Shown: positions 31,555 to 62,084 of the stretch, piece by piece
How the letters are laid out: each line of letters begins with the position of its first letter
Numbering within the stretch: the stretch's first letter is position 1
Assembly (NCBI GenBank): GCA_016176335.1
Contig: JACOXI010000005.1
Span: forward strand, 63,391 to 127,390
DNA: 64,000 nucleotides
Reading direction: 5' to 3'
DNA from: Candidatus Daviesbacteria bacterium
GTDB lineage: Bacteria; Patescibacteriota; Microgenomatia; Daviesbacterales; UBA10151
Translations under genes and position numbers: made by a program
The notes under the pieces: model-generated
Database searches by the model: none
What the model saw: only the letters and a program-made list of their open reading frames with translations
What the model was told of the DNA's origin: nothing

Positions 31555-32308
31555 TTTAAAACTCAAAACTCAAATGTCAAATGTCAAAGCTGGAGAGGAT
31601 CAGACAGCAAAATCTGAACCAGTTAATGATATAAGCGAAGGGAGACTGCCTCCGAACGCAGCGAGCCCTAGAGTCGCCGAAGGCGACCGTACCCGAGGCG
31701 AAGCCGAAGGCGAGCCGCAGGGCGTAAGTACCGAAGGTACAGTTGGCGAGCAAGAGAGCGGGGCGGTCGACCGATCAGGCAATCCTAACGCCAAATGGTA
31801 TGTTGTTCATACTTATTCCGGTCATGAAAACAAAGTGGCGCACACTTTAAAGCAGCGGATTGAATCCGAACATTTGGAAGAGAAAATTTTAGATGTTTTG
31901 GTGCCTATGCAGGATAAAATTGAAATAAAAGGCGGCAAAAAAGTAAGCATTAAAGAAAAAATCTTCCCCGGCTATATTTTGGTAAAAATGGTTTTGGAAG
32001 ATAGTTCCTGGCTGGCTGTCAGAACAACTCAAGGTGTCACCTCCTTTGTGGGTATGGGTAATAAACCCACCCCGATCTCCGATGCGGAGGTGGCCACCAT
32101 AGTCAAATTTACCCAAGAGGAGGCTCCTGTTTATAAGCAGGTTTTCTCTGTTTCGGATACTATCAAAATTGTGGACGGGCCTTTTGCAGATTTTATTGGT
32201 AAAGTGGATAATGTGGATGAGGAAAAAGGCAAGGTTAAGGTTTTGGTATCAATATTCGGGCGTGAAACACCAGTGGAGTTGGATTTTCTGCAGGTGCAGA
32301 AGATATGA
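31544..32308 (+). CDS. nusG: transcription termination/antitermination factor NusG with ~75-aa repeat-derived N-terminal extension
   Basis: NGN start KWYVVHTYSGHENKV and KOW C-terminus. No in-frame start codon near the NGN domain, so the extension (heptamer tract plus GC-rich element) appears to be translated. Confidence 0.85.
   Translation: MDDDLKLKTQMSNVKAGEDQTAKSEPVNDISEGRLPPNAASPRVAEGDRTRGEAEGEPQGVSTEGTVGEQESGAVDRSGNPNAKWYVVHTYSGHENKVAHTLKQRIESEHLEEKILDVLVPMQDKIEIKGGKKVSIKEKIFPGYILVKMVLEDSSWLAVRTTQGVTSFVGMGNKPTPISDAEVATIVKFTQEEAPVYKQVFSVSDTIKIVDGPFADFIGKVDNVDEEKGKVKVLVSIFGRETPVELDFLQVQKI
31640..31775. repeat. GC-rich element copy inside the nusG N-terminal extension
   Basis: gggagactgcctccgaacgcagcgagccctagagtcgccgaaggcgac...gttggcgagcaagagagcggggcggtcgaccgatcagg. 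Palindrome gtcgccgaaggcgac. Read in a different frame than the PBP1A copy. Confidence 0.7.
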
Positions 32309-32368
32309 TCGGCTCTTCGTATATCGAATATTGGTCATCCGATAAACGATAAACGATATTCCAAACAA

Positions 32369-32794
32369 ATGGCTAAAAAAGTTAAAACCTATATTAAACT
32401 AACTATCCCTGCAGGAGTAGCAACTGCAGCTCCTCCAGTGGGAACAGCCTTAGGCCCGCACGGTTTACCTATCATGGAGTTTGTCAAGGCATTTAATGAA
32501 AGAACCAAAGATAAACAGGGTACTGTTTTACCTGTGGTGATCACAGTTTATGAGGATAGAACCTTTTCTTTTATTACCAAAGAGCCTCCTGTTGCTGAAA
32601 TGATTAAAAAAGCCCTCAAGCTGGAGAAAGGCTCTGGCCAAGCCTTAAAAGAACCTGTTGGAACCCTGACAGCAACCCAAGTTGAAGAAATTGCCAAAGC
32701 CAAAATGCCTGATTTGAATGCAAATTCGGTAGAGGCTGCTATAAAAATTGTTGAAGGAACAGCCAAAAGTATGGGAGTAAAAATTAGTAGTTAG
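32369..32794 (+). CDS. rplK: 50S ribosomal protein L11
   Basis: 141 aa. Motif [19 protein letters not shown]. Confidence 0.9.
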
Positions 32795-32805
32795 TATTAA
32801 GTATT

Positions 32806-33723
32806 ATGGGCAAGACAAAAGTAGCCATCATTGATGATTCAGCGCAAGAAGAGAATAGAGAATCAAGAATAAAGAATAAAGCCTCTAAGAAAAGGGCTAA
32901 AGCGACCGAAGTGAAGTCTGATGCAGCTTCTCGACTGTTTGAGCCAGGCGAGGATGGCCAAAAGGCTCAAGCTTTGACGAGCGTGACGCCATCCGAGCCG
33001 ATTCCGCCAAAGGCGGAAGGCGAGTTGGAGAAGCAAATTCAGACGAACGAGAGAGTACAACCTAAAAAACCTCAAAAACCAGGCAAAGCTAAGCCCCGCT
33101 CCAAGAAATACCAAGAGGTCGTAAAAGATTTGGATAGAACTAAATCCTACCCTTTAGGTGAGGCTATAGAACTTAGTAAAAAACTGTCCTATTCTAAATT
33201 CACAGGTACACTTGAAGCACATATCAATACCACTCAAACAGGAATCCGTGGTTTAGCCTCCCTTCCCTATTCTTCAGGTAAAAAATTACGCATCCTGGTC
33301 TTTGGAAAAGGTGCCAAAGACGCAGGTGCAGATCTGGTGGGTGATGATTCCACCATTGAGGCTATCTCCCAGGGCAAAATTGATTTTGACCTTCTGATAA
33401 GCACTCCTGAATGGATGCCAAAGCTTGCCAAAGTGGCAAGGGTTTTGGGACCTAAGGGGCTCATGCCCAATCCCAAAAATGGCACCATCACAGACGACCT
33501 CAAAAAAGCAGTGGAAGGATTTCAAGCCGGAAAAACAGAATACAAAACAGAGGCCAAAGCAGCAGTAATCCACCTTGGGCTGGGAAAGTTGAATCAACCT
33601 ACCGAGGAGTTATCTGCCAATGTTCAAACTTTGCTTCAAACTTTAGGCAAAACCAGAGTTAAAAAAGTCACTCTTTCCCCCACCATGGGACCATCAGTTA
33701 AAGTTGATCTAGCTTCCATGTAA
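32806..33723 (+). CDS. rplA: 50S ribosomal protein L1 with ~90-aa N-terminal extension
   Basis: L1 core starts near KKYQEVVK...EAIELSKK. N-terminal Lys/Glu-rich extension carries a GC-rich stretch. Confidence 0.85.
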   Translation: MGKTKVAIIDDSAQEENRESRIKNKASKKRAKATEVKSDAASRLFEPGEDGQKAQALTSVTPSEPIPPKAEGELEKQIQTNERVQPKKPQKPGKAKPRSKKYQEVVKDLDRTKSYPLGEAIELSKKLSYSKFTGTLEAHINTTQTGIRGLASLPYSSGKKLRILVFGKGAKDAGADLVGDDSTIEAISQGKIDFDLLISTPEWMPKLAKVARVLGPKGLMPNPKNGTITDDLKKAVEGFQAGKTEYKTEAKAAVIHLGLGKLNQPTEELSANVQTLLQTLGKTRVKKVTLSPTMGPSVKVDLASM

Positions 33724-33729
33724 AATAGT

Positions 33730-34317
33730 TTACCCTTGCGAATGAGTTTTGGCTATTTTCTCTATAGCTTCCTCTACATATTCTTCTATCTGTCTTGCTA
33801 ACCTTATGTGAACTTTAAGCACTGCCTGCTCGTCAGTCGGATGAACATAACCAGTTATGCCATAAAAAGGCGGTTTTAACAAAGGGGGCAAACTGTTAAT
33901 AACCCCAGAAAGCCAGGTGGCTCTGATCAAGCTATGCGGATCAGGAATCTCCTGCTCTGGGAAACCAACGTACTCCGGCAAGGTATAAACATTACCGGCC
34001 TCTCCTATTCCTGTTAAAGCTCTGACTTGCCTTACCTGGTCACGCTCAAAACATAACACCAGATCGGAATTTCCTAAAAGTTCGGCTGTTGCCCTTGTCG
34101 GTATATGGTGCTTGGGAGGTTGATATCCCAGTCTCTCCAAAGCAGAACGCATTTCATAGCTTAGATCCATAAAAGGAGGTTCAATTAAACCGGCCGACGC
34201 ACACTTAACACCAAGAAGACCTTTTTCTTCAGCCATAGCTTTAGCAATGCATTCGGCAACCGGACTTCTGCTTATATTGGCCCAGCAGACAAAGGTCACG
34301 CTGTTGATCTGTTCCAT
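33730..34317 (-). CDS. low-molecular-weight protein tyrosine phosphatase / ArsC-fold
   Basis: 195 aa. P-loop CX5R(S) motif VCWANISRSP at the N-terminus. Confidence 0.55.
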   Translation of the reverse strand: MEQINSVTFVCWANISRSPVAECIAKAMAEEKGLLGVKCASAGLIEPPFMDLSYEMRSALERLGYQPPKHHIPTRATAELLGNSDLVLCFERDQVRQVRALTGIGEAGNVYTLPEYVGFPEQEIPDPHSLIRATWLSGVINSLPPLLKPPFYGITGYVHPTDEQAVLKVHIRLARQIEEYVEEAIEKIAKTHSQG

Positions 34318-34339
34318 AAGTCCAAGTATTATAGCAGTT

Positions 34340-35323
34340 CTATTTTCTACGTAAGGCCTTCTTCAGTATCAGGTTCAAATCCAACTTTAGATTAAATATA
34401 GATATCAAACCAAGTATTATCACAAATATAGCTGTTGTTATATGCGATAAAACTACCATGGATGAAGCTACATTTACTTCAAATCCAAACACTCCGGACA
34501 AAATTAAACTTCCTGATACCTCCGCAGACCCCACATAACCTGGAGCTGCCGGAATAAGATAAGTTAAGGCAGAAAGCATCTGACCAAAATACATCGTGAG
34601 ATATCCCGGGTTAACCCCCAGTGATTGAAAGGTAAAAAACCAAATCCCCGCATCAGCCACATAAGCCAACAATGTTAAAACAATTAAAGTCATCAGATCT
34701 TTTTTGCTTCTTTTTAAAATAGAAAAAGACTCTAAAATAAATGACGTAAACCTAACAAAAGGTATCTTAATAAGATTAAATATAAATAGTGGTGTCAAAA
34801 AAACGACCAATTTTTTAGAAAAATCTAATCTGAATATTGCCAAATATGTGACCAGCAGGAATAAACAGAATACACTCGATATAATAATGATAAAATTTTT
34901 AGGCAAAGTTGTGGGGATAACAAGCAAAAAAATTGACGATGCAGCCAAAACAGTTAAAAAATCAATAAACCTGTCCATAAACACCCAAATTATTGATTTT
35001 CCAAAGCTTAACTCATATTTTGTATTAAGATATACACCTTTGCCAAAATCCCCTGCTCTAATCGGAATAAAAAAATTCAACAGTATTGCCGCACCATTTA
35101 AAAACACCAAATTCCAAAGGGGAATTTGTTTGATTTCCGAAAGGAAAACCTTCAGTCTTATTGCCCGAATGAACGGCGAGGCAAACATACAAAAAAATGC
35201 AGGAAGAAGAAAAATAAGATTGGCCTCGGATAATTTTTGCCATATTTGAGTAAGGTCAACAAATCGAGACCAAATAAAAATTAAGACTAATCCCACAATT
35301 GTATTGAAAATAATCTTTATCAT
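34340..35323 (-). CDS. polytopic membrane protein (UPF0104 / lysyl-PG-synthase-TM-like)
   Basis: 327 aa, 8 or more TM helices. Confidence 0.35.
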   Translation of the reverse strand: MIKIIFNTIVGLVLIFIWSRFVDLTQIWQKLSEANLIFLLPAFFCMFASPFIRAIRLKVFLSEIKQIPLWNLVFLNGAAILLNFFIPIRAGDFGKGVYLNTKYELSFGKSIIWVFMDRFIDFLTVLAASSIFLLVIPTTLPKNFIIIISSVFCLFLLVTYLAIFRLDFSKKLVVFLTPLFIFNLIKIPFVRFTSFILESFSILKRSKKDLMTLIVLTLLAYVADAGIWFFTFQSLGVNPGYLTMYFGQMLSALTYLIPAAPGYVGSAEVSGSLILSGVFGFEVNVASSMVVLSHITTAIFVIILGLISIFNLKLDLNLILKKALRRK

Positions 35324-35362
35324 TAGTTGCCAAACTCTCCCTTTTAAATATACACTATTAAT

Positions 35363-35436
35363 AGCTATCAGTCTTCAGCTATCAGCTTTCAGACTGAAAA
35401 ATTGTCTGACGACTGATGACTGACAGCTGACGACTA
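35363..35436. repeat. palindromic heptamer-repeat element of the ctgatag/gctatca family
   Basis: agctatcagtcttcagctatcagctttcagactgaaaaattgtctgacgactgatgactgacagctgacgac. Lies between the divergent starts of the membrane-protein and dockerin genes. Confidence 0.75.
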
Positions 35437-35442
35437 ATTACC

Positions 35443-36339
35443 ATGTTTTCTACCTTTAAGCAAAGAGTGCTTCTTATAATATATACTATTGTTATACTGT
35501 CCATCCCTGTGGGCACGTATCTTATTTCTCAATATCAAACTATCCGAAGCAGGGCGGAAGAAGCCAAGCCAACCACACCACCTGTGGAAAGAATTACACC
35601 TGTACCTGAAAGCTCTTCCAGCAGTAATCTTACCAATCTATCCGAAGCGGATTCCACTTTGGAAGATCTGTTAAAGATCACTCCCACTCCCTCACCCCAA
35701 GCAACCATAAGCCCGACAATTGCCACATCTTTCGGCCCCACTCTATCATTTAAAATCACCATTGAAGGAAGGCCAAAAGAAAAACAGGCAGGGAAAGTTT
35801 TTGTAGGGGTTTTGGAAGGTGATTTGGTGACAAACCCCAAGTTTTTATTAACCTTTTTGGCTGATGTCCCCGCGAGCGGTGAATACGGCAATCTGTCAAT
35901 TGCAGGATTAAACCCCGGCAGCAAATACACGGCGCTTTTGAAGGGCAGAGGACAAATTGCCAAAGCTTCCACATTTATTATGTCTCCTGCAGAATCTAAA
36001 TTAAACGGAGGTCAAGCCTTAAATCTTGTTTCAGGAGATTTAAATGAAGATAACATCATCAATACAGCGGATTATTCTATTGCTCAAAAAGCCTTCAACT
36101 CAACTCCAACTCAATCAAACTGGAATAAAAATGCCGATATAAATGATGATGGAGTTGTCAATATATTTGATATCTCTGTAATCATTAAAAATTTGGGCCA
36201 AGTTGGAGATTCCGGAGTTTGGGTTTCACCTATTCCAACCGCCACATCATCGGGAGCGCTGACAGAAGATTCAAATAATCTTCCTGTTGGTTCTTCTGGA
36301 GGATCAAACAATGGCTACTGGCTATGGATACCCAAGTGA
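35443..36339 (+). CDS. secreted dockerin-domain protein
   Basis: 298 aa. N-terminal TM/signal and Pro/Thr linker. C-terminal paired dockerin type-I calcium-binding repeats (DLNEDNIINTADYS... DINDDGVVNIFDIS). Confidence 0.6.
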   Translation: MFSTFKQRVLLIIYTIVILSIPVGTYLISQYQTIRSRAEEAKPTTPPVERITPVPESSSSSNLTNLSEADSTLEDLLKITPTPSPQATISPTIATSFGPTLSFKITIEGRPKEKQAGKVFVGVLEGDLVTNPKFLLTFLADVPASGEYGNLSIAGLNPGSKYTALLKGRGQIAKASTFIMSPAESKLNGGQALNLVSGDLNEDNIINTADYSIAQKAFNSTPTQSNWNKNADINDDGVVNIFDISVIIKNLGQVGDSGVWVSPIPTATSSGALTEDSNNLPVGSSGGSNNGYWLWIPK

Positions 36340-36403
36340 TATTGCAACCACACAACGCTAATTGACAAATGCAAGCCCATAGTTTATACTTATTCATTAT
36401 CAT

Positions 36404-37045
36404 ATGAGTGTTTTAGAAAAACTTGCCCGAGTCGGTCTTAGCTCCGCAATGCTTTTAACTGCATGTGATTCCGGACCTAGTACGTAAGAATCATCAATCC
36501 AACCACCGGTCAAACCGAACGCAACCGTAATAAGTCAAGCTCAAGCTACGCCAACCCCGCCATCAAAGCCTGGAGAAAGAGTTGTTTTTGAAACCCCTGA
36601 ACCAACACCTCCTTCCCTAAGACTTCCAGACCTTCACGCTTACCTTGGATATCCAACCATTATATCTATCAACGGAGAAAGCTATACAAGCTTTATGGAG
36701 AAAAGAGGATATAAAATTAATATATATGAGTCACAAATCCCATATAAAGGAACGGTTGTACCACAAGAAGGGCTAATCACTCATCTTCTACCAACAACCG
36801 ATAGTAAGATCAGCAGCTTAGGTGGAGAATATTCTCTAAAACAGGGTCATATCCAGGTTGGATTAAAATATTTTGTGGAAATTAAAAAAAGAGATGGGAC
36901 AAGAAAGGAACTTTGGGTGGCCCGATTCCTAATGGTCAGAATGGGTAATAACCCACCAGTTCTTACCTTAGGATTTAACGCCGTTGAATTTAAAGAGGGT
37001 GAAAGTGGAAAAACCAACACATATATCAACCTCCTTCCAGGATGA
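36404..37045 (+). pseudogene. lipoprotein gene interrupted by in-frame TAA (signal peptide MSVLEKLARVGLSSAMLLTAC then stop at 36485..36487, frame continues to 37045)
   Basis: Lipobox LLTAC. The same frame stays open through a Pro/Thr linker into the 116-aa ORF 36695..37045. Confidence 0.35.
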
Positions 37046-37136
37046 CTACCGGGAAATACTGAATAGTTACATGATTGGCCTATTGACAAGGAGGAAAAAG
37101 TTATTTTAAACTGAAAGTAGCAGACGGGCAAACCAA

Positions 37137-40100
37137 ATGGTTAGCCCAAAAAAATCTCTGGTGGCCATTATTGGCCTGATAGCAGTTTCCCTGTGGATTT
37201 TAATTCCCCAGTCTGCTTTTGCCACTTCAAGTAAATATTATGATTTTGGCCCATATTATGGCGGTTCTTCTGTTTTAGGTTTTTCCTTCTCCAACTTGGA
37301 AAACCTGCCTGTCCCTCAAATTGCGGATAGCCTGATGCCACCTAAAGCAGGCGGTATTTTGCCTGACAATCCTTTTTATGCTTTGGAAAAGGTGGTGGAG
37401 AATGTCCAACTTACTTTTACATTTGATCCTGTAAAAAAAGAGCAGTTGAGGCTTGATATTGCTAGCGAAAGATTATCTGAAGCTAAAACTTTAATGGATC
37501 AAGGTAAAACCCAAGCAGCCTCTCAAGCCCTGGATGATTACGGCCAGACCTTAACTGCCCTCAGCCAAAATCTAGCGGCCATTGCTCAAAGAACCGATCC
37601 TGCTGCCCAAGCTTTAGTCAACAAAGCAGAGGAGGTATCTGCTACCCAGGCAGTGGTTACTCAAGCCTTAAGTTTAACTTCTTCTCCTGCTCAAGCTGAA
37701 AGCTGGACCCAAGCCACCAACATCACCAGATACTCTCTTGACAAGGTAGCCGAGGCCAAAGGCGAACCTGCTATACCTACGGAGTTTTCTTCCAGTATCC
37801 AACAACTCAAAGAACAGGGGCTGATTTCGGAAGAAGAAAGTAATAAGTTATACAGTTTCAAAAACCGAAGCGAAGTCAGGGACGAGCTTAACAAACTCTC
37901 TTCCTCGGGCCAATTTCCTATTTCGGAAGCTGTTAGATTAGACGATGCTGTCACCAAATATTTCCCGGATGTACAGAAACAGTACCTAACTAATTTACAG
38001 GTTGTAGAATTAAAATCCTATCAAACTTTACCCCAGCCTGACAGCAAAACGGCAGAAGAGCTGAAAAAGTGGCAAGCTAATCCAGCTACCCCCCCATCAA
38101 ATGATATCAAACCATATTTGTGGTATAACCGAGCCCAGGATTTAGCCCGCGATGTTGACCTGTCGAACTTTTCACCAACCCAGCAGGGAGACTTAGTCAA
38201 ATTCTACCCTCAAGCTGTTCAAACTAACCCAACTTATTCCCCTCCGCCCAGCCCTTCTCCTGTACCAGCTGACGCCTCGCCTGCCCCCTCACCCACCTCT
38301 GCTGTTCCTGCCTCACCTACACCTTCCCCCACACCTCCTGCTGCCGAACCTTATCTGCAAGGTACAGGTGGAGCTTTGCCTGGTGAGCCTTTCTATTTTA
38401 TAAAGCAGTGGGGAGAGGGTTTAACCTATACCTTTACTTTTGATCCGGCCCAGAAAGCCAGACTGAGGATGCAGGAGGCTGAACGCCGTCTGGCTGAAGC
38501 CGAAGCACTGGCCAATGATCCCAAGAAAGCCACCTTATATGAATCTACCCTCAAAAGTTACCAGCAAACTCTCGCTGATGCTTCAAACATCGTCAAAAAT
38601 CTGAAAGATACCAAAGCATCTGAAGAGGCGGCAGCCAGATTAGAAGCTCAGGCAGCCAGACATGAGGTGGTTTTTGAAAAAGGGCTCTTGCCTCCTCCTC
38701 CTCAAAATCCCACACTGACCTCTGATGTTATCAGGACAGCGGAGGATGCCATGGACAGAAGCGCTGATGTTTTGGACCGACCGGCGCTGCCGCCTGTCTT
38801 GGCCTCTCGTCTGCAAGATCTCAAAGCCCAGGGCCTGATCCTGCCTGAAGAAGCAGAAGATTTAACCCGATCTGCTTCGCGAGAAGAGGCGCGGGAAAAA
38901 ATTAGAAAATTGGTTGAGCTTAACACTTTTCCCCCGGCTGATGCCAAAAAACTGGATGAAGCCCAAGCTGTAGTTTCCCCTGCAGACTACAATCAGCTGG
39001 TGGAGGTCAGGAAAGTTGAGGAGTTGCAAAGTTTGAGATCAGTCCAAACTGATCTGGCTCAAACTCCCACCTTAAGATCCACAGCCACCACTTTAGCCCA
39101 AAAGGAGGTGGCTTTAACTAACTCTTTTGATCCTACACTGATCAAACCAGAAGATCTAGGAGGTAAAGAAAACTTAATTAAAGCCTATGAAAGACTGACA
39201 GCGGTTCCTCGTCCTATTAATGGCGGGCAATTTGGTCCCGAAGTCACACCTGGCGCTCAACCATCAGCTACTCCCAGACCTCAAGATGCGGTTTTGTCTG
39301 CTTGTCCTGAGGGGGCTACCTTCAAACAATCTGAAGGCTGTATTTGGGCAGATAATGGCAAGCGGATTAATGATTATGACCAGTATAAATGTGAAGGCCC
39401 AAGACAATATTATTCTTTTGCTGTTAAGAAATGTGTGGCTTCTGACTCAACTCGCGGTTATCAAGAAGATGCCCAGCCAATCTGTCCAGTAGGTTATTCC
39501 TGGAACTGGCAGGCTCAAAGCTGTCAGACAGCAACAGGCGGGATTCTTCCTTTCCCCAGCCCCTCGCCTGTAGTAGACCCTATTAATGATGAGGAACGAG
39601 AGGCCAGGTCAAAGAGTTGTCCTGAGGGAGCCTCCTATCAACCGCCCAATGGCTGTGTTTGGGATAAAACTGGCAAATCAGTTTATGATCCTGAGCAATA
39701 TAGATGCGGTCGAGGTCAATACTATTCATTTGAGGAAGGGAAATGTGTTGCCTCGCCAAAAGAGGGAGAACCTTATCCCAAAAATACCACTCCAGTTTGT
39801 AAAGAAGATGGAGCTTATTGGAGTTGGAACGAAGGAAAATGTATTCAAGCTGTTTTTCCATCAGAGCAAAAAGGAGGACCGGGGGCAATTATAATTGATG
39901 AGTTTAGACCTCCTTTTATCGCTCCCAACAGTCCATTCTATATTATTAAACAAGCAGCGGAAAGAGTACAACTTGCTATAGCATTTACTGCCCCAGCCAG
40001 AGAACGAGTCAGCTTGTCTCAAGCTAAAGAAAGATTAATTGAAGCTGCGGACGCTCTAAAAAGAAATGATGAAGGAGCTGTTAAAAAAGCTTTAGACACT

Positions 40101-41801
40101 TATACTTCTATGATGCAGGATATTGTATCTGACGTATCTAAGGAACAGCTGACAGAGGGGGCCAAAATCGAAATCGGGAAGCTGTTAGCCGAGAAATCAG
40201 TTGAGCAAAACCTGCTATTGCAGAAGCTTCAAGCTTTGGCCCCAAGTGCACAAGATACGGCCATCAGTGCTGCGGTATCAGCCACCATCTTAGGGGTGGA
40301 TAAAGCAGCAGATGTTGCTGGCGAGCCGCCAATTCCAGATGAACTCAGAAGCAAAATTGAAGCTTTGCCGGAAAAGATGATCTCAGAAGAAGACAAAAAG
40401 AAACTTTTGGAGATGAAGTCTCGAGTTGAAGCCAGACTCCAAATAGGAGGCTTGGTAGCAAACGGGGCTTTAACCCAAACTGACACCAGCTTCTTAAATG
40501 AGGATTTTGATGCTGTTGATCAAAACGCCAGAATCAAGGTGGAGGAACTCAAAAAACTAGAGGAGATTGCCGATGCTGCCGAGACCAAAGATAAACTGGA
40601 AGAAAAGATAGGTAAGAACGAAGAAATTGCCCAAAAACTCCAAGACTTTGAGAAAACCTTTGAGCCGGGCAAAGAGGTACCAGCTGAAATCCGTCCTTAT
40701 ATCCGGCTAACCCGCATTAACGAGATAGCCCAAACCGTCAGACCCGATACTATCAACCTTGAAGACTTCTCAAACCGCAAGGATCTTATGTTGGCAGTAG
40801 CCACTCTACAGGAAGAATACAGGCCCACCATAGATGCTTTAAGACAAGTAGAAGACTTTAGAAGAAGAAATCCCAATGCTGCCTTGCCGCTTACTTTGGC
40901 CCGGGTTGCGGCTTTATCCGTAAGCCTTGGGGTAAGAGAAAAAGCCGGACCATGTTATCTACCAACACCCCTCTTCCCGGCCAACACCCCTTGTCCGGCG
41001 CCGGGAGCAGCCATCCCCATTAGTTCCTTTACCGGGATCGGGCCTACCATTGTTGATGAGTTTCGCCCCGGCTGGCCAGGTTCAGCATATCCGTCAGCCT
41101 ATCAAACAGGTCCTACTACCGATAAAGATGGCAATCCCTTAGTCTATGGCCAAGGGCCTCAACCAACCAGCGCCGGGGTTTGTCCTTCAGGTTCTCACTG
41201 GATGTATGATAGTGGTGGCTGGTGTATGTCAAACAGTGGCAACTACAGTTCCTCCTATTCCTACACGCCTTCTGGCACTGGTTCCGGTTACACCCCTTAT
41301 AGTCCTTATTACACTGCCCCGGGAGCGCCTCCGGCAAGCTATGGCTACCCAGGATCCGGTTCTTATTCTAACTTCATAAACACTTACTCGCCTCCAAATT
41401 ACTGGAGTCCTGCCCCCACCAATTACACTACCACCCCACCTACTGGCACGGTGCCAGGATCTGGACCCAGGCCAACTGCTCCTGGTCAGTGTCCATCAGG
41501 GTATCATTGGATGTCTGATTCCGGTGGCTGGTGTATGGCTGACGGACCAACCTATGTACCCAGCGGCTCACCATACAATTATCCGGCGGGTACAACTACC
41601 AGTGGCGTGCCGTCAGGAAGCTTGAATTGCGGCTCCCAGAGCTTTAATCCGGCTACCGGAAGGTGCAATGATGGCGCCTGCCCCGGAGGCTTTAACTGGG
41701 ACGGCTCAAGATGTGTAGCCAGCAGTCCCAGTTACTATTCTCCTAACTTAAACCGGATATTACTGGGATGGCAGAGGCTGTATTCGCACAAGCCCTACTG
41801 A
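37137..41801 (+). CDS. giant secreted modular cysteine-rich protein (N-terminal 1554 aa before frameshift)
   Basis: Signal peptide. Three ~55-aa modules (P.NPFY.L/IK...TFTFDP...A.ERL.EA). Four Cys-rich ~45-aa modules (CPEG...C.W...GK..YD...Y.C....YYSF...KCVAS). G/S/Y/T-rich tail with CPSG[SY]HWM.DSGGWCM repeats. Confidence 0.7.
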   Translation: MVSPKKSLVAIIGLIAVSLWILIPQSAFATSSKYYDFGPYYGGSSVLGFSFSNLENLPVPQIADSLMPPKAGGILPDNPFYALEKVVENVQLTFTFDPVKKEQLRLDIASERLSEAKTLMDQGKTQAASQALDDYGQTLTALSQNLAAIAQRTDPAAQALVNKAEEVSATQAVVTQALSLTSSPAQAESWTQATNITRYSLDKVAEAKGEPAIPTEFSSSIQQLKEQGLISEEESNKLYSFKNRSEVRDELNKLSSSGQFPISEAVRLDDAVTKYFPDVQKQYLTNLQVVELKSYQTLPQPDSKTAEELKKWQANPATPPSNDIKPYLWYNRAQDLARDVDLSNFSPTQQGDLVKFYPQAVQTNPTYSPPPSPSPVPADASPAPSPTSAVPASPTPSPTPPAAEPYLQGTGGALPGEPFYFIKQWGEGLTYTFTFDPAQKARLRMQEAERRLAEAEALANDPKKATLYESTLKSYQQTLADASNIVKNLKDTKASEEAAARLEAQAARHEVVFEKGLLPPPPQNPTLTSDVIRTAEDAMDRSADVLDRPALPPVLASRLQDLKAQGLILPEEAEDLTRSASREEAREKIRKLVELNTFPPADAKKLDEAQAVVSPADYNQLVEVRKVEELQSLRSVQTDLAQTPTLRSTATTLAQKEVALTNSFDPTLIKPEDLGGKENLIKAYERLTAVPRPINGGQFGPEVTPGAQPSATPRPQDAVLSACPEGATFKQSEGCIWADNGKRINDYDQYKCEGPRQYYSFAVKKCVASDSTRGYQEDAQPICPVGYSWNWQAQSCQTATGGILPFPSPSPVVDPINDEEREARSKSCPEGASYQPPNGCVWDKTGKSVYDPEQYRCGRGQYYSFEEGKCVASPKEGEPYPKNTTPVCKEDGAYWSWNEGKCIQAVFPSEQKGGPGAIIIDEFRPPFIAPNSPFYIIKQAAERVQLAIAFTAPARERVSLSQAKERLIEAADALKRNDEGAVKKALDTYTSMMQDIVSDVSKEQLTEGAKIEIGKLLAEKSVEQNLLLQKLQALAPSAQDTAISAAVSATILGVDKAADVAGEPPIPDELRSKIEALPEKMISEEDKKKLLEMKSRVEARLQIGGLVANGALTQTDTSFLNEDFDAVDQNARIKVEELKKLEEIADAAETKDKLEEKIGKNEEIAQKLQDFEKTFEPGKEVPAEIRPYIRLTRINEIAQTVRPDTINLEDFSNRKDLMLAVATLQEEYRPTIDALRQVEDFRRRNPNAALPLTLARVAALSVSLGVREKAGPCYLPTPLFPANTPCPAPGAAIPISSFTGIGPTIVDEFRPGWPGSAYPSAYQTGPTTDKDGNPLVYGQGPQPTSAGVCPSGSHWMYDSGGWCMSNSGNYSSSYSYTPSGTGSGYTPYSPYYTAPGAPPASYGYPGSGSYSNFINTYSPPNYWSPAPTNYTTTPPTGTVPGSGPRPTAPGQCPSGYHWMSDSGGWCMADGPTYVPSGSPYNYPAGTTTSGVPSGSLNCGSQSFNPATGRCNDGACPGGFNWDGSRCVASSPSYYSPNLNRILLGWQRLYSHKPY

Positions 41802-42588
41802 TACTTCTTACTATTCTCCCAGCTCGTACTCGCAAGGTTGCACTCCAGGTTATTACTGGAATGGCAGTAAATGTGTGGCAGGTAGCAATGAAGGTTCAGG
41901 GTGGTCAGATACAGCTGCCAGATCCCAATCCTGGTGTCAACCTCCCTCAAACGGCTGTGGCTCTAATTCTTATTGGGATTATGGTAGCTGTTACTGCAGC
42001 AGCTCAACCACTTATTATGGAGGTAGTGGTCCCTCACCCAGCAATCAATGCCAGGGTCTAAGCTGCGGTGGAGGCGCATGGTTAGATTACTCAACCTGTA
42101 GTTGTAAGTATTCAGGTGGTTCTGGAACTAGTTCTACAGGATCTACCATCACTTGTTATCCTCCTTCCGCAGGTTGTCCAGGCGGCTGGTATGATTATGG
42201 CACTTGCAGCTGCAAAACCAGCTACTCCGGCACAAGTTCCGGCTCAGGAGGAACAACTACCACCGGTTCTTGTCCTTCAGGCTCCCATTGGATGAGTGAT
42301 AATGGTGGTTACTGCATGTCTGATACCGGAGGAGGCACATCCTCTTCCGGCTCTACCACCACTTCATCCGGAGGATCAACATCAAGCGGATCCTGTCCTT
42401 CGGGATATCATTGGATGAGCGATAATGGTGGCTGGTGCATGCAAGACGGCGGAGGCTCGACCTCAAGTAGCGGCTCAACAACTACTACCAGTGAACCGGC
42501 TCCGACCACTACCACCACTACCACATCTGAACCGGCCCCCACACCTACCAGTTCCGAACCTGCGCCAACACCTGCTCCCAGCCCTTAG
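41752..42588 (+). CDS. C-terminal continuation of the giant protein in the +1 frame (frameshift near 41745..41760)
   Basis: The frame holding ORF 41875..42588 encodes TGYYWDGRGC...CTPGYYWNGSKC, then CPSGSHWMSDNGGYCM and CPSGYHWMSDNGGWCM repeats identical in type to the upstream ORF. Ends in a T/P-rich tail. Confidence 0.55.
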   Translation, partial: TGYYWDGRGCIRTSPTDTSYYSPSSYSQGCTPGYYWNGSKCVAGSNEGSGWSDTAARSQSWCQPPSNGCGSNSYWDYGSCYCSSSTTYYGGSGPSPSNQCQGLSCGGGAWLDYSTCSCKYSGGSGTSSTGSTITCYPPSAGCPGGWYDYGTCSCKTSYSGTSSGSGGTTTTGSCPSGSHWMSDNGGYCMSDTGGGTSSSGSTTTSSGGSTSSGSCPSGYHWMSDNGGWCMQDGGGSTSSSGSTTTTSEPAPTTTTTTTSEPAPTPTSSEPAPTPAPSP

Positions 42589-42801
42589 TCCTTAATGTCA
42601 GTCAATACGACACATTGACAAACATGACATCATAAGTTAAAATAATTTGGCTTAAGACAGTGAGTGGAGCGAAGCGACATCCTGAGCATAGTCGAAGGAT
42701 GCTTTACACCATAAATCTCACCGAGGCAGTTTAGTATATCGTAAGATTGAATATCGTATATCGGAAAACCGATAAACAATAAACGATTAACGATAAACCA
42801 A

Positions 42802-42826
42802 AAACGCCTCAGAAAGGCGTTTTTTA
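42802..42826 (+). terminator. rho-independent terminator-like hairpin plus T-run abutting the rplJ start codon
   Basis: aaacgcc-tcagaaa-ggcgttttttaa, then ATG of rplJ 2 nt later. A-run on the 5' side makes it bidirectional in form. Confidence 0.5.
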
Positions 42827-42827
42827 A

Positions 42828-43364
42828 ATGGCTAAAACTAAACAACAAAAAGAGCAAGCAGTACAACAAATACAAGAAAAGCTGGGCAAGGCCAAAGCTA
42901 TAGTTTTTGCTGACTATAAAGGCTTGACCATGAAGCATTTATCCGATTTAAGAAATAAATTGCGTGATGTTAATGGCGAATTCAGTATAACCAAAAATAG
43001 CTTACTTGAACGTGCTCTTCCCGCCTCCAACTTTGAAGGTCCAACAGCCACTCTTTTTGCGTATGATGATCAAATTACCCCTATTAAAATTTTGGTCAAA
43101 GCGCTAAAGGATGCTGCCATTGGTAAAGTTAAGGCGGGGTTTTTAGGAGTTGATGTCCTGGATGAAAACAAGATTCTTACACTGGCCAGTCTGCCCTCTA
43201 AAGATGAACTGAAAGGTCAAGTTGTGGGACTATTGGCAGCTCCACTTCAAGGTATGGTATCAGTACTACAAGGAAATCTAAGAAATTTAGTGCACGTAGT
43301 GCGCGAACTTCGTTCAGTATATACATTATCAGAAATTCAAAAAGCGAAAGGAGGTGAAAGTTAG
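42828..43364 (+). CDS. rplJ: 50S ribosomal protein L10
   Basis: 178 aa. Start MAKTKQQKEQAVQQIQEKLGKAKAIVFADYKGLTMKHLSDLR. Confidence 0.85.
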   Translation: MAKTKQQKEQAVQQIQEKLGKAKAIVFADYKGLTMKHLSDLRNKLRDVNGEFSITKNSLLERALPASNFEGPTATLFAYDDQITPIKILVKALKDAAIGKVKAGFLGVDVLDENKILTLASLPSKDELKGQVVGLLAAPLQGMVSVLQGNLRNLVHVVRELRSVYTLSEIQKAKGGES

Positions 43365-43440
43365 TATATCGTAAATCGGTTATCGTATATCGGAAACACA
43401 CAAACCATAAACGATAAACCATAGACGATCAAACAACCAT

Positions 43441-44088
43441 ATGGCAGATGATCAACAAAAACAAGATCAACAATCAGAACAGCCTAAAACTGAAGAATCA
43501 ACAGAGGGAGCGAAGGCTGCCGCAGATTCTCAACTGTCAGAGGCAGGCGAGATCAGCAGCGAGAGCACAAGTTCTGACGTGCACGAGCCTGGTCGAGCTG
43601 GTGGCGAACCGCCAGCTGGCGGTGAGCCAGCCGAGTTGGAGAATCAAGGCCAGCCGAGCGACCAAAGCGCACCAGCCAAGAAAAAACCTGCTCCTAAACC
43701 AGTTTCAGCAAACTTAGAAAAGATAATTGAACAAATTGAAAAATTATCAGTTCTAGAACTGGCTGATTTAGTACATGCTTTAGAGGATAGATTTGGGGTT
43801 TCAGCATCCGCACCAGTTATGGCAGCAGGACCAGCAGCCGCCTCGCCTTCGGCGGGCGAGCCAACGGAGGAAAAAACTACTTTCAATGTGGTTTTAACAG
43901 CAGCAGGTGCCAATAAAATTGCAGTGATAAAAGCTGTCAGGGAATTAGTCCAGACTTTAGGGTTAAAAGAGGCAAAAGATTTGGTGGAGTCAGCTCCAAA
44001 ACCTGTTTTGGAATCAGTTAATAAGCAGACTGCTGAAGAGGCAAAACAGAAGCTTACGGCAGCAGGAGCGACAGTAGAACTTCAATAA
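43441..44088 (+). CDS. rplL: 50S ribosomal protein L7/L12 with ~90-aa GC-rich N-terminal extension
   Basis: L12 core from [28 protein letters not shown] to ...AAGATVELQ. Acidic/Pro-rich N-terminal extension. Confidence 0.85.
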
Positions 44089-44214
44089 CCCTATTGACAC
44101 CATCTGTTTTGTTGTGATATACAAAGAAATAGATCATCTTATTATTGAACCAGAATACCTCGCCAAGTCAGACTTGGCAGGGATGAATGGTTCGATAAGA
44201 ACTTGTTCGTTCGT

Positions 44215-44454
44215 ATGGCTAATAATAAATTATCACTGGAAAATCTCCCTGATTTACTAACTGTTAAAGAAGTTGCAGAAGTTTTGCGTGTTTCACCCTT
44301 AACCATTAAAAGGTGGGGCAAAAGAGGAAAATTACCTGCTATAAGAATTAATAGTAGAGGTGACAGGCGTTATAAAAAAGAGGCGGTGCTATGGCTTTTA
44401 GGTATAACCCAGAAACAAGTTTCAGGTGAATCCACTACACCTACTTCATACTAA
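44215..44454 (+). CDS. helix-turn-helix DNA-binding protein (excisionase/MerR-like HTH)
   Basis: LTVKEVAEVLRVSPLTIKRWGKRGKLPAIRI. Confidence 0.5.
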   Translation: MANNKLSLENLPDLLTVKEVAEVLRVSPLTIKRWGKRGKLPAIRINSRGDRRYKKEAVLWLLGITQKQVSGESTTPTSY

Positions 44455-44650: not shown

Positions 44651-44697
44651 CTATTCTGCTAATTGCCATTGAAAAGGTTATCCGAAAAGCATAATCT

Positions 44698-45207: not shown

Positions 45208-45238
45208 AATTTCAGCTTAAACGGAATAAATAGGATAG

Positions 45239-60791: not shown

Positions 60792-62084
<1,293 letters not shown>

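What the first reader, a model, noticed from the sequence alone, without database searches (positions are those of the whole stretch)
33730..42800. About 9 kb accessory block inserted between rplA and rplJ, splitting the universally conserved rplKAJL operon
rplK-rplA (32369..33723) and rplJ-rplL (42828..44088) are normally contiguous. Here they are separated by five genes: an LMW tyrosine phosphatase and a polytopic membrane protein on the opposite strand, a dockerin protein, a disrupted lipoprotein, and a 5.4 kb giant cysteine-rich surface protein on the same strand. The block ends with a strong terminator 2 nt before the rplJ ATG. The contents (phosphatase, dockerin, giant adhesin-like protein) look like a cell-surface or host-interaction module. 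If read-through occurs, the module may use ribosomal-operon transcription.
Basis: partly seen in the sequence, partly recalled or inferred. Interest (0 to 1): 0.8.

Follow-up and report, generated by a model that had tools for sequence, protein, structure and literature searches.

The report
Old split in ribosomal gene cluster
The 9 kb of genes between rplA and rplJ are real, but most of the arrangement is inherited across the Daviesbacteria rather than newly inserted, and the "terminator" in front of rplJ is the switch of a known self-regulating leader for ribosomal protein L10.

Summary
rplK-rplA (32369-33723) and rplJ-rplL (42828-44088) are 9,104 nt apart. Between them lie an LMW tyrosine phosphatase, a flippase-like membrane protein, a dockerin-domain protein, a lipoprotein gene with an in-frame TAA, and a 5.4 kb DUF5667 gene with a frame change.

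The window is a Candidatus Daviesbacteria (Microgenomates/CPR) genome. In 29 of 33 informative related genomes the flippase-like gene lies just after rplA, and the dockerin gene follows it in most. rplJ is never adjacent to rplA (1.9-9.6 kb away where found). Cargo around that fixed pair is varied and includes ATP synthase, purine genes, sigma-70, toxin-antitoxin pairs and IS200.

The giant protein is a conserved Microgenomates gene (43-69% identity in about 50 orthologues). Codon usage and GC3 of the block match the rest of the window. Independent assemblies reproduce three stretches of the block, including both junctions with the ribosomal genes.

rplJL has its own conserved TTGACA-17-TAAAAT promoter and an L10 leader resembling Rfam RF00557. 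The hairpin before the ATG is that leader's terminator, not the end of the block.

Splits between rplKA and rplJL are already documented elsewhere. This is a new example of a known kind, of modest interest.

The parts
32369..33723 (+). rplK-rplA transcription unit. L1 carries a low-complexity N-terminal extension of about 95 aa.
   Evidence: Pfam L11 N- and C-terminal domains and Ribosomal_L1. The upstream order PBP1a-ASCH-secE-nusG-rplK-rplA is conserved in 40+ loci.
33730..34317 (-). LMW protein-tyrosine phosphatase (195 aa), the last gene of the minus-strand pair. It is a sublineage-specific addition between rplA and the flippase-like gene.
   Evidence: PF01451 64 bits. Best solved relatives are YwlE, YfkJ and other LMW-PTPs. 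It has the CX5RS loop with Ile at C+4 and a DP loop (sequence). It is absent at this position in all 44 genome loci. Only 4 close homologues were found, one of them again next to the flippase-like gene. The rplA-LMWP-LPGTM stretch is identical in 3 Logan assemblies.
34340..35323 (-). Flippase-like polytopic membrane protein: the MprF-type transmembrane region only, without a synthase domain. This is the fixed element convergent with rplA.
   Evidence: PF03706 112 bits and TIGR00374 86 bits. It lies directly downstream of rplA on the opposite strand in 29 of 33 informative loci, at 37-63% identity, often overlapping rplA tail-to-tail by 5-9 nt.
35324..35442 (.). Divergent promoter region between the flippase-like and dockerin genes. 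It holds the conserved dockerin-gene promoter (TTGCCA-18-TACACT, 35327-35356) followed by an oligo-repeat ('CTGA'-type) palindromic insert of about 85 nt.
   Evidence: Promoter scan. The TTGCCAA..TAAATATACACT motif is conserved upstream of the dockerin gene in L001, L052 and L060, with a weaker version in L005; in L001, L060 and L005 it directly abuts the ATG.
35443..36339 (+). Secreted or anchored protein with an N-terminal signal anchor, a Pro/Ser/Thr linker, a beta-rich module and a type I dockerin domain. This is the second fixed element.
   Evidence: PF00404 39.7 bits. PDB dockerin and X-dockerin matches. Present after the flippase-like gene in most Daviesbacteria loci at 40-60% identity.
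36404..37045 (+). Lipoprotein gene inactivated by an in-frame TAA (36485-36487). It has its own promoter-like site, TTGACA-17-TATACT, at 36362-36390.
   Evidence: Sequence. The TAA is present in 6 independent assemblies identical to the window. Intact 215-216 aa orthologues exist at 65-83% identity; the one checked (P0058, 83%) lies at the same position in L060.
37137..42588 (+). Giant DUF5667 envelope protein gene. It encodes a signal peptide, three helical modules of about 300 aa containing DUF5667, two Cys-rich modules, and a Gly/Ser/Thr/Pro/Tyr-rich C-terminal part with CPSGxHWMSDxGGWCM repeats. The frame changes at about 41745-41755. It has its own TTGACA-18-TAAACT site at 37083-37112.
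   Evidence: Pfam. About 50 full-length orthologues of 1664-1942 aa at 43-69% identity in Daviesbacteria, Levybacteria, Blackburnbacteria and other Microgenomates. Frameshift mapped against P0002. AF2 model of residues 1-700 is all-alpha with pLDDT 78 and no PDB fold match. The -35 element and a CAGACGGG motif are conserved upstream.
42615..42643 (+). rplJL promoter (TTGACA-17-TAAAAT).
   Evidence: 11 of 12 consensus matches. A TTGACA-like -35 lies 37-39 nt upstream of the L10 box in 15 of the 18 leaders the script processed before it stopped; exceptions were L001 (TTGAAA, 29 nt), L032 (65 nt) and L017 (none found).
42650..42727 (+). L10(L12)4-binding box of the rplJ leader (GCUUAAGACAGUGAG ... 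UAA ... CUCACCGAGGC). A palindromic element of about 46-48 nt (CAUCCUGAGCAUAGUCGAAGGAUG) is inserted in its apical loop.
   Evidence: Rfam RF00557 hit over the full model at 42633-42835, 35 bits, E=2.7e-4. The orthologous leader in L021 scores 45.7 bits, above the gathering score of 44. In an alignment of 17 leader sequences, 98.7% of cells are paired and 2 pairs show compensatory changes (11 cells), with 0 of 500 shuffles reaching this.
42733..42797 (+). Palindromic oligo-repeat spacer (UAUAUCG...CGAUAAAC). It forms the middle hairpin of the leader. Related copies lie upstream of rplK (32317-32369) and between rplJ and rplL (43362-43427).
   Evidence: the repeat finder families D3, D5 and I1. 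The motifs TCGTATATCG and ATAAACGAT occur on the plus strand only at these three places in 64 kb. Leader fold.
42800..42827 (+). Terminator / start-site-occluding hairpin of the L10 leader, with its U-run, ending 2 nt before the rplJ ATG.
   Evidence: Stem of about 10 bp (the scan counts 11 with the following U), -11.6 kcal/mol. It aligns with the terminator of RF00557. An equivalent hairpin was detected in 16 of 19 leaders tested, and in 14 of those 16 the best partner of its 5' arm in the whole leader is the box 3' strand CCGAGGC. An alternative antiterminator fold is only 0.8 kcal/mol above the MFE.
42828..44088 (+). rplJ-rplL. L12 carries an acidic N-terminal extension of about 90 aa. A 76-nt insert separates rplJ from rplL.
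   Evidence: Pfam. Relatives have a gap of only a few nt between rplJ and rplL, with a GGAGG-type SD inside the rplJ 3' end. The junction is identical in 4 Logan assemblies.

Best explanation
This is a lineage-wide, old break between two separate transcription units, rplKA and rplJL, in Candidatus Daviesbacteria. It is not a recent insertion of one accessory module.

Layout. The break is permanently occupied by a divergently transcribed pair: a flippase-like membrane protein, convergent with rplA, and a dockerin-domain secreted protein. Genes turn over at the junctions around this pair. In this genome and some relatives, a giant DUF5667 envelope protein that is conserved across Microgenomates sits between the dockerin gene and rplJ. 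A phosphatase and a lipoprotein gene were added in the sublineage. The lipoprotein gene is now a pseudogene, and the giant gene carries a frame change.

Transcription (inferred). The flippase-like and phosphatase genes are read on the minus strand from the divergent region 35324-35442. The dockerin, lipoprotein and giant genes each have their own sigma-70-like promoter. rplJL is driven by TTGACA-17-TAAAAT at 42615-42643.

Regulation of rplJL (inferred). The transcript starts at an L10(L12)4-binding box that mimics 23S rRNA. When the L10(L12)4 complex is in excess it holds the box closed. The hairpin at 42800-42824 then forms, transcription stops just before the ATG, and the purine-rich 3' arm and start region are buried. 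When the complex is scarce, the box 3' strand (CGAGGCAGUUU) pairs with the hairpin's 5' arm (AAAAACGCCUC) as an antiterminator, and rplJL is expressed.

No terminator lies between the giant gene's stop (42588) and the leader. Read-through from the giant gene would therefore enter the same attenuator.

Shown versus inferred. Gene content, conservation, covariation and the alternative pairings are shown here. Promoter use, protein binding and termination are inferred by analogy with Bacillus subtilis (PMC4538822).
For: - Taxon and synteny: 44 related genome loci were compared. The flippase-like gene follows rplA in 29 of 33 informative Daviesbacteria loci. The rplA-to-rplJ distance is 1.9-9.6 kb in 21 loci and the two genes are never contiguous. 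The minimal form rplA|TM(-)|dockerin(+)|rplJ is seen in L014, L030 and L032.
- L052/L053 have the window's order without the phosphatase and lipoprotein genes. L060 has an intact lipoprotein gene at the same position. L061 again has the flippase-like gene followed by the phosphatase gene.
- Cargo elsewhere is heterogeneous: 48 clusters among 71 ORFs, including ATP synthase, purine genes, sigma-70, Gp49/HTH, IS200, subtilase and fn3 or M23 giants.
- The giant protein has about 50 orthologues at 43-69% identity over 97-99% of the query. In Levybacteria, Blackburnbacteria and a Microgenomates-group genome (Gr01-1014_5) it is not near ribosomal genes.
- GC3 and codon-usage z-scores of block genes are within about 1 SD of the window's 62 ORFs, except the low-complexity C-terminal piece at -1.7.
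- Independent assemblies are identical to the window over 32674-35395, 35367-38622 and 42199-44580.
- Leader: RF00557 hit, box covariation, promoter spacing, antiterminator partner ranked first in 14 of 16 leaders with a detected hairpin, two folds 0.8 kcal/mol apart, and a leader fold z-score of -4.7.
- Literature: splits fall mostly between rplKA and rplJL-rpoBC (PMC4481853), with named examples in Bradyrhizobium and Actinomyces (PMC12993453). The anti-antiterminator/antiterminator/terminator attenuation logic is from PMC4538822.
Against: - There is no expression data, so promoters, termination and L10 binding are not demonstrated.
- The promoter-like scan as a whole is not enriched over shuffles (24 found against 22.5 expected). 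The case rests on position and conservation.
- The window's leader scores 35 bits, below Rfam's gathering score of 44.
- Four informative loci (L007, L025, L026, L034) lack the flippase-like gene after rplA; L026 keeps the dockerin gene and rplJ nearby, and the other three show no rplJ in the sequence available downstream. The arrangement is therefore not absolute.
- 'Ancestral' is inferred from distribution among species representatives, not from a rooted reconstruction.
- The functions of the fixed pair and of the giant protein are unknown: there is no PDB sequence hit for the flippase-like or giant protein and no fold match for the giant protein.
Confidence: 0.85

Rival explanations
1. This is a recently acquired accessory or host-interaction island, moved by horizontal transfer or a mobile element, that inserted as one block into a contiguous rplKAJL operon.
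For: - The block is large (9.1 kb) and rich in envelope proteins.
- The phosphatase is rare and missing at this site in all 44 genome loci.
- The closest outgroup, a Woykebacteria genome (L038), has rplA and rplJ 301 nt apart.
- GC is raised in the giant gene, 0.48-0.53.
Against: - The core pair is conserved at the site across the clade, and the giant gene lies there in at least 6 other genomes.
- The raised GC is at codon positions 1-2 (amino-acid composition). GC3 and codon usage are native.
- There is no integrase or transposase in the block. The nearest tRNAs are 12 kb and 8 kb away. There are no long flanking direct repeats and no similarity to phages or plasmids.
- The giant protein is about as conserved as L1 in the same genomes.
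Confidence: 0.04
2. This is an assembly artefact: a chimeric join at the short repeats flanking rplJ, or inside the repetitive giant gene, put unrelated DNA between rplA and rplJ.
For: - Repeat copies lie upstream of rplK, rplJ and rplL.
- The giant gene has internal repeats and a frame change.
- Short-read Logan contigs break inside the giant gene's repeat region.
Against: - The flanking repeats are about 50 nt and only 61-73% identical, too weak to mis-join.
- Independent assemblies from several sequencing runs reproduce three stretches exactly: rplA-phosphatase-flippase-like; dockerin-lipoprotein-giant 5' end; and giant 3' end-leader-rplJ-rplL.
- The same gene order occurs on a 1.02 Mb contig (L052) and on a record titled as a chromosome (L016).
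- Only the frame change near 41750 remains unverified.
Confidence: 0.02
3. The block is a functional surface module deliberately embedded in the ribosomal cluster, so that its expression is coupled to growth rate through read-through or antisense transcription from the strong ribosomal promoters.
For: - The position of the flippase-like/dockerin pair is strikingly fixed, with tail-to-tail overlap of rplA and the membrane gene in several genomes.
- Other Microgenomates lineages also have secreted Ig-like or dockerin proteins at boundaries of the same cluster.
- There is no terminator between the giant gene and the rplJ leader.
Against: - Two of the genes are antisense to rplKA.
- Every plus-strand gene has its own promoter-like site; those of the dockerin and giant genes are conserved in relatives.
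- Cargo at the same junctions in relatives includes housekeeping and selfish genes with no link to the surface.
- The giant gene lies elsewhere in most genomes.
Confidence: 0.08

Closest known systems
rplKAJL-rpoBC cluster of Escherichia coli and most bacteria
   Same: The order and strand are rplK-rplA ... rplJ-rplL, preceded by secE-nusG. rplJL has its own promoter and an L10-responsive leader. rplKA and rplJL are separable transcription units (PMC4481853, PMC12993453).
   Different: Here 9.1 kb and five genes separate rplA from rplJ (1.9-9.6 kb across the clade). rpoB and rpoC do not follow rplL: an HTH_17 gene, a cupin/GPI-like gene, WecG and a GT4 gene follow instead. Apart from the giant gene, no ORF in the window exceeds 834 aa, which is too short for rpoB or rpoC.
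Documented splits of rplKA from rplJL (Bradyrhizobium diazoefficiens, Actinomyces israelii, several proteobacteria; from memory also Mycobacterium tuberculosis, with mmaA1-4 and other genes between rplA and rplJ)
   Same: The same breakpoint, between the two transcription units, is occupied by unrelated genes (PMC12993453 section 19; PMC4481853 section 13).
   Different: In Daviesbacteria the break is clade-wide, holds a fixed gene pair, and shows rapid cargo turnover at its junctions. The M. tuberculosis case is recalled from memory and was not checked here.
Bacillus subtilis rplJL leader (Rfam L10_leader RF00557), an L10(L12)4-dependent transcription attenuator
   Same: There is a promoter-proximal box with a helix, a conserved UAA and a CCGAGG strand, then a terminator with a U-run. 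The box 3' strand can pair with the terminator 5' arm, giving the same anti-antiterminator / antiterminator / terminator logic (PMC4538822).
   Different: - The terminator abuts the rplJ start codon. In most relatives it carries a GGAG/GAGG Shine-Dalgarno sequence for rplJ itself in its 3' arm, whereas in Bacillus that arm holds the SD of a leader peptide.
- No leader peptide is evident.
- Two palindromic elements are inserted, one in the box loop and one in the spacer.
- Five relatives (L017, L019, L023, L032, L044) lack the terminator and place the box directly on the SD, which is the translational-repression layout attributed to E. coli.
MprF transmembrane (flippase) domain family, TIGR00374 / PF03706
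   Same: The protein matches the full profile at 327 aa and is polytopic.
   Different: There is no C-terminal lysyl-phosphatidylglycerol synthase domain, so it is not MprF. Its substrate is unknown.

Membership tests
Rfam L10_leader (RF00557) | Lies in the 5' untranslated region directly upstream of rplJ, downstream of a promoter | tested here: met
   The hit at 42633-42835 ends at the rplJ ATG (42828). The TTGACA-17-TAAAAT promoter lies at 42615-42643.
Rfam L10_leader (RF00557) | Covariance-model score at or above the curated gathering score (44 bits) | tested here: inconclusive
   The window scores 35.0 bits, E=2.7e-4, across the full model 1-138. The score is lowered by a 41-nt loop insert and by spacer inserts. 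The orthologous leader in L021 scores 45.7 bits, above the threshold.
Rfam L10_leader (RF00557) | Recognition hairpin with a conserved UAA and flanking helices, supported by covariation | tested here: met
   In an alignment of 17 leader sequences, 98.7% of cells are paired, two pairs show compensatory changes (GC/AU/UA and AU/GC), and slid controls reach at most 57% paired. UAA is conserved 5' of the 3' strand.
Rfam L10_leader (RF00557) | Intrinsic terminator, plus an antiterminator that overlaps both the box and the terminator | tested here: met
   A hairpin with a U-run was detected in 16 of 19 leaders tested. In 14 of those 16 the best partner of its 5' arm is the box 3' strand. The alternative fold is 0.8 kcal/mol above the MFE.
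Rfam L10_leader (RF00557) | Binding of L10(L12)4 and protein-dependent termination | not testable with these tools
   This needs purified protein, in vitro transcription or reporter fusions, as in PMC4538822.
Contiguous rplKAJL-rpoBC cluster | rplA immediately followed by rplJ | tested here: not met
   The gap is 9,104 nt in the window and 1.9-9.6 kb in 21 relatives.
Contiguous rplKAJL-rpoBC cluster | rpoB-rpoC directly downstream of rplL | tested here: not met
   An HTH gene, a cupin-like gene, WecG and a GT4 gene follow rplL. No ORF of rpoB or rpoC size is in the window.
Genomic island / mobile element | Integrase, transposase or recombinase, and insertion next to a tRNA or between direct repeats | tested here: not met
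   None of the block's genes has such a domain. The tRNAs lie at 20.8 kb and 50.5 kb. Only short, degenerate repeats are present.
Genomic island / mobile element | Composition or codon usage deviating from the host | tested here: not met
   GC3 z-scores run from -0.8 to +1.0 and codon-usage z-scores from -0.3 to -0.7, with -1.7 for the low-complexity tail.
Genomic island / mobile element | Absent from the same site in close relatives | tested here: not met
   The core pair and, in several genomes, the giant gene are present at the site. Only the phosphatase and lipoprotein genes are restricted to a sublineage.
LMW protein-tyrosine phosphatase (PF01451) | Pfam score above threshold, a CX5R(S/T) P-loop and a DP general-acid loop | tested here: met
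   The score is 64.2 bits against a cutoff of 23.2. 'CWANISRS' and 'IPDPHS' are in the sequence. PDB relatives are YwlE, YfkJ and PtpA. Ile rather than Thr at C+4 suggests phosphotyrosine rather than phosphoarginine specificity; the significance of that residue is recalled from memory.
MprF (lysyl-phosphatidylglycerol synthase/flippase) | C-terminal aminoacyl-phosphatidylglycerol synthase domain | tested here: not met
   The protein is 327 aa and matches only the transmembrane profile end to end.
Cellulosome-type dockerin protein | Type I dockerin domain above the Pfam threshold | tested here: met
   PF00404 scores 39.7 bits against a cutoff of 22.9, at residues 198-251, with PDB dockerin matches.
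Cellulosome-type dockerin protein | A cohesin partner or scaffoldin in the genome | not tested
   Only a 64 kb window was available and no cohesin search was done.

The most novel reading that the evidence does not exclude
In Microgenomates the boundaries of the secE-nusG-rplKA / rplJL cluster may be selected landing sites for envelope and surface-protein genes. Examples are the flippase-like/dockerin pair and the giant DUF5667 protein in Daviesbacteria, and Ig-like or NHL-dockerin proteins in other lineages. On this reading, surface-protein output is coupled to ribosome synthesis in two ways: convergent antisense transcription from rplKA over the membrane gene, and read-through of the giant gene into an L10-gated attenuator. 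In that attenuator a single hairpin would both terminate transcription and hide rplJ's own ribosome-binding site.
Probability: 0.12. Interest if true: 0.55.

Novelty: new member of a known kind. Interest (0 to 1): 0.3.

Why it matters
This corrects an attractive but misleading reading. A large 'insertion' in a textbook operon turns out to be the normal, inherited layout of a whole candidate-phylum class, at a breakpoint already known from other bacteria.

Three things are useful beyond that:
- The L10 autoregulatory leader, characterised in Bacillus and E. coli, is recognisable in the Candidate Phyla Radiation. Two layouts occur within one class: a terminator abutting the start codon, and the binding box placed directly on the ribosome-binding site.
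- A 1,700-1,900 aa DUF5667 protein is a conserved core gene of Microgenomates with no known function or structural relative.
- The ribosomal cluster offers a fixed landmark for studying gene turnover in these small genomes.

Tried and rejected
- An Rfam gathering-threshold scan of the whole window found only four tRNAs. The L10 leader appeared only in a local E-value search.
- PDB sequence searches of the giant and flippase-like proteins gave no hits.
- A Foldseek search of the AF2 model of giant residues 1-700 against the PDB gave only generic helical-repeat noise: best E 0.035, TM below 0.2. No fold assignment was made.
- I tried to verify the giant gene's frame change in independent assemblies. 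The exact look-up of the C-terminal ORF was not on record, and Logan contigs carrying rplJ begin at 42199, downstream of the shift. It remains unresolved.
- DNA searches of the block against the phage and plasmid collections found no match.
- Literature searches for DUF5667 and for ribosomal-cluster synteny in the Candidate Phyla Radiation found nothing relevant.
- An Rfam search of the GC-rich element inside nusG found no family.
- I considered the 42800-42824 hairpin as the terminator of the giant gene. I rejected this because the hairpin lies downstream of the rplJ promoter and L10 box, and is conserved in relatives where the dockerin gene, not the giant gene, precedes rplJ.
- I considered arginine-phosphatase (YwlE-type) specificity for the phosphatase. 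I think it unlikely because the residue at C+4 is Ile, not Thr. This is from the sequence plus memory of the YwlE literature.

Full report
**1. Observation**

- rplK is at 32369-32794 and rplA at 32806-33723.
- On the minus strand lie an LMW phosphotyrosine phosphatase (33730-34317, PF01451) and a polytopic LPG_synthase_TM protein (34340-35323). NCBIfam names the latter a TIGR00374 flippase-like domain protein.
- On the plus strand lie a dockerin type I protein (35443-36339), a lipoprotein gene and a giant gene with three DUF5667 stretches (37137-41801, continuing in another frame to 42588).
- The lipoprotein gene starts at 36404 with the lipobox LLTAC. It is broken by an in-frame TAA at 36485-36487 and continues to 37045.
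- rplJ (42828-43364) and rplL (43441-44088) follow.
- A hairpin with a stem of about 10 bp and a U-run (42800-42825) ends 2 nt before the rplJ ATG.

- The giant gene is not one open frame. Against orthologue P0002 the window lacks about seven codons ('TQSSCGP') and shifts from frame 3 to frame 1 at about 41745-41755.
- The lipoprotein stop codon is real in the population. Six Logan assemblies from different runs are 100% identical to the window over 35367-38622, TAA included. Intact 215-216 aa orthologues exist.

**2. Organism and synteny**

Searching one genome per species with L1 returned 44 loci. Most are titled Candidatus Daviesbacteria or Microgenomates, and several are mislabelled co-assembly bins. 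I mapped the window's proteins onto them with tblastn.
- Upstream, the order PBP1a-ASCH-secE-nusG-rplK-rplA is conserved.
- Downstream of rplA, 29 of 33 informative Daviesbacteria-type loci have the flippase-like gene on the opposite strand (37-63% identity). It often overlaps rplA tail-to-tail by 5-9 nt. The dockerin gene follows it in 27 of those 29.
- rplJ-rplL follow 1.9-9.6 kb after rplA in 21 loci. In no Daviesbacteria locus are rplA and rplJ adjacent.
- The minimal form is rplA | TM(-) | dockerin(+) | rplJ (L014, L030, L032, about 1.9-2.1 kb).
- A 1.02 Mb contig (L052) and a second assembly (L053) show the window's order including the giant gene, but without the phosphatase and lipoprotein genes.
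- L060 has an intact lipoprotein gene between the dockerin and giant genes. L061 again has the flippase-like gene followed by the phosphatase gene.
- Among outgroups, a Woykebacteria genome has rplA and rplJ 301 nt apart. Other Microgenomates have 2-5 kb of secreted Ig-like proteins there, or a 1,199 aa NHL/Ig/dockerin protein between nusG and rplK.

**3. What fills the gaps elsewhere**

Cargo varies mainly at two junctions: rplA/TM gene and dockerin gene/rplJ. L003 also has about 7 kb between the TM and dockerin genes. Seventy-one ORFs fall into 48 clusters. They include:
- 23S_rRNA_IVP, Wzy_C, DUF5674 and LytR_C proteins;
- a subtilase, and fn3- and M23-containing giants;
- HTH_3 plus Gp49 pairs and an IS200 transposase;
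- housekeeping genes: ATP synthase alpha/beta/gamma, SAICAR synthetase, AIR carboxylase, IMP cyclohydrolase and a sigma-70.

This is what a permissive boundary between two operons looks like. It is not a dedicated surface module.

**4. Tests for foreign origin or artefact**

- GC3 and synonymous-codon likelihood of the block genes lie within about 1 SD of the 62 long ORFs of the window. The raised GC of the giant gene is at codon positions 1-2, reflecting its Pro/Ala/Gly/Ser/Thr-rich composition.
- The block has no recombinase. The nearest tRNAs are at 20.8 kb and 50.5 kb. There are no long flanking repeats and no match to phages or plasmids.
- The repeats 'flanking rplJ' are about 50 nt and 61-73% identical.
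- Independent assemblies reproduce 32674-35395, 35367-38622 and 42199-44580 exactly.

A chimera is therefore excluded. Only the frame change near 41750 could not be cross-checked.

**5. The genes**

- *Phosphatase.* It has the CX5RS loop (CWANISRS) and a DP loop. Its best solved relatives are YwlE, YfkJ and other LMW-PTPs. Only four close homologues were found.
- *Membrane protein.* It matches the MprF-type transmembrane profile end to end and has no synthase domain.
- *Dockerin protein.* It has a signal anchor, a Pro/Ser/Thr linker, a beta-rich module and a dockerin domain.
- *Giant protein.* It is annotated in NCBI as a hypothetical Daviesbacteria protein of 1,554 aa on a 160 kb contig.
  - It has about 50 full-length orthologues of 1,664-1,942 aa at 43-69% identity over 97-99% of its length. 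They occur in Daviesbacteria, Levybacteria, Blackburnbacteria and other Microgenomates.
  - That is as conserved as L1 in the same genomes. In non-Daviesbacteria genomes it is not near ribosomal genes.
  - An AlphaFold2 model of residues 1-700 (pLDDT 78, pTM 0.72) is entirely helical and has no solved-structure relative.
  - From its signal peptide, three helical modules, two Cys-rich modules and a disulfide-repeat, Ser/Thr/Pro-rich tail, I infer an extended envelope structural protein. This is inference only.

**6. The 'terminator' and rplJL expression**

- *Promoter and start.* Between the giant gene's stop (42588) and rplJ lies TTGACA-17-TAAAAT (42615-42643; 11 of 12 consensus matches). About 7 nt downstream the sequence GCUUAAGACAGUGAG ... 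UAA ... CUCACCGAGGC begins (42650-42727).
- *Rfam match.* A local Rfam search matches L10_leader RF00557 over the whole model (42633-42835, 35 bits, E=2.7e-4). It aligns the 42800-42824 hairpin with the family's terminator. The score is below the gathering score of 44 because of inserts. The orthologous leader in L021 scores 45.7 bits.
- *Conservation of the box.* The box is present in all 24 rplJ leaders examined. Among the 18 the script processed, 15 have a TTGACA-like -35 element 37-39 nt upstream.
- *Covariation.* In an alignment of 17 leader sequences its two helices are 98.7% paired, with compensatory changes at two pairs.
- *Terminator and antiterminator.* A terminator-like hairpin was detected in 16 of 19 leaders tested. 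In 14 of those 16 the best pairing partner of its 5' arm anywhere in the leader is the box 3' strand.
- *Folding in the window.* The terminator fold (-47.9 kcal/mol) and the antiterminator fold (-47.1 kcal/mol) are nearly isoenergetic. The leader folds far better than shuffles, z = -4.7.

This is the anti-antiterminator / antiterminator / terminator logic shown experimentally for Bacillus subtilis (PMC4538822).

Differences from Bacillus:
- The hairpin abuts the start codon. In most relatives its 3' arm carries GGAG/GAGG for rplJ itself.
- Five relatives lack the hairpin and place the box on the Shine-Dalgarno sequence.
- The window has palindromic inserts in the box loop and in the spacer.

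The hairpin therefore belongs to rplJ's leader, not to the block.

**7. Transcription of the block**

The phosphatase and flippase-like genes are antisense to rplKA. The dockerin, lipoprotein and giant genes each have a promoter-like site just upstream (35327-35356, 36362-36390, 37083-37112). Those of the dockerin and giant genes are conserved in relatives. The idea that the block uses ribosomal-operon transcription is not supported. If anything, the giant gene's transcripts run into the rplJ attenuator, because no terminator precedes it.

**8. Comparison with what is known**

The cluster is among the most conserved gene blocks. Even so, the splits that are detected fall mostly between rplKA and rplJL-rpoBC (PMC4481853). 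Bradyrhizobium diazoefficiens and Actinomyces israelii have genes between rplKA and rplJL (PMC12993453). From memory, Mycobacterium tuberculosis does too.

So this is a new, clade-wide example of a known kind of rearrangement, with a variant of a known regulatory leader.

**9. Verdict**

- Confidence in the 'old operon boundary with a fixed pair, variable cargo and an autonomous L10-regulated rplJL' explanation is about 0.85.
- Interest is modest (0.3). The more speculative coupling hypothesis has a probability of about 0.12.

Noticed in passing
window 28590-28760 (PBP1a 5' region) and 31640-31790 (nusG N-terminal extension); L060:380-565 and L009:1270-1440 (rplA N-terminal extension): A GC-rich element of about 150 nt is shared by different protein-coding genes and translated in different frames. 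It contains a covarying hairpin (TCGCCGAAGGCGA / CCCGCGAAGCGGG / CCGGCGAAGCCGG). It looks like an insertion element that sits in frame inside coding regions, reminiscent of Rickettsia palindromic elements. There is no Rfam match.
   Followed up: partly
window 42678-42702 and 44586-44610; rplJ leaders of L006, L016, L017, L019 and L036; upstream of rplK in L014: A small palindromic repeat, CCTGAGC(G/A)T(A/T)GTCGAAGG, recurs. In the window one copy is inserted in the apical loop of the L10-binding box and another lies downstream of the HTH gene. The box loop ranges from about 6 to 67 nt among relatives and looks like a hotspot for this element.
   Followed up: partly
window 32317-32369, 42733-42806, 43362-43427 (also in-frame at about 10621-10650 on the minus strand): A palindromic oligo-repeat element (TCGTATATCGG..CCGATAAACGATAAAC) lies upstream of rplK, rplJ and rplL only. 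Between rplJ and rplL it is a 76-nt insert. It separates the rplL ATG from the GGAGG that acts as the Shine-Dalgarno sequence in relatives, where the gap is only a few nt. rplK, rplA and rplL have no obvious SD in the window.
   Followed up: partly
window 27366-27484, 31551-31604, 53523-53590, 56202-56328, 61085-61138; 35357-35440; 32841-32882 and 46077-46118: Several families of short oligo-repeats (ATCTCAAATGTCAAAACTCAAATG, CTGA-type, AGAATAAAGAAT) fill intergenic regions. They also occur inside coding sequences, for example 'RIKNHKS'-type stretches in the GT4 and WecG proteins and in the L1 N-terminal extension. Relatives carry different oligo-repeats at the same places.
   Followed up: no
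window 32806-33090 (L1), 43441-43710 (L12), 31544-31770 (NusG): L1, L7/L12 and NusG carry long low-complexity N-terminal extensions of about 95, 90 and 75 aa. The L12 extension is acidic and precedes the dimerisation domain, which normally starts the protein. Relatives have such extensions too, with divergent sequence.
   Followed up: no
window 44089-47160: rpoB and rpoC do not follow rplL. Instead a BldC/excisionase-like HTH_17 gene (90-100% identical in some relatives), a cupin/GPI-like gene, WecG and a GT4 glycosyltransferase follow, and this order is conserved across Daviesbacteria.
   Followed up: partly
window 37110-37136; upstream of the giant gene in L001, L009, L016, L052 and L060: A CAGACGG(G/A) motif is conserved 10-15 nt upstream of the giant gene's start codon in six Daviesbacteria loci. 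It is absent in the three orthologous loci outside Daviesbacteria that were examined (Levybacteria, Blackburnbacteria and Gr01-1014_5). It may be an unusual ribosome-binding or regulatory site.
   Followed up: no
L018:13949-14537 and L010:13830-13925: Some relatives carry a second, partial copy of the rplA 3' end a few kb downstream of the intact gene. In L018 this copy lies beside a fragment of the flippase-like gene. This suggests duplication and rearrangement scars at this junction.
   Followed up: no
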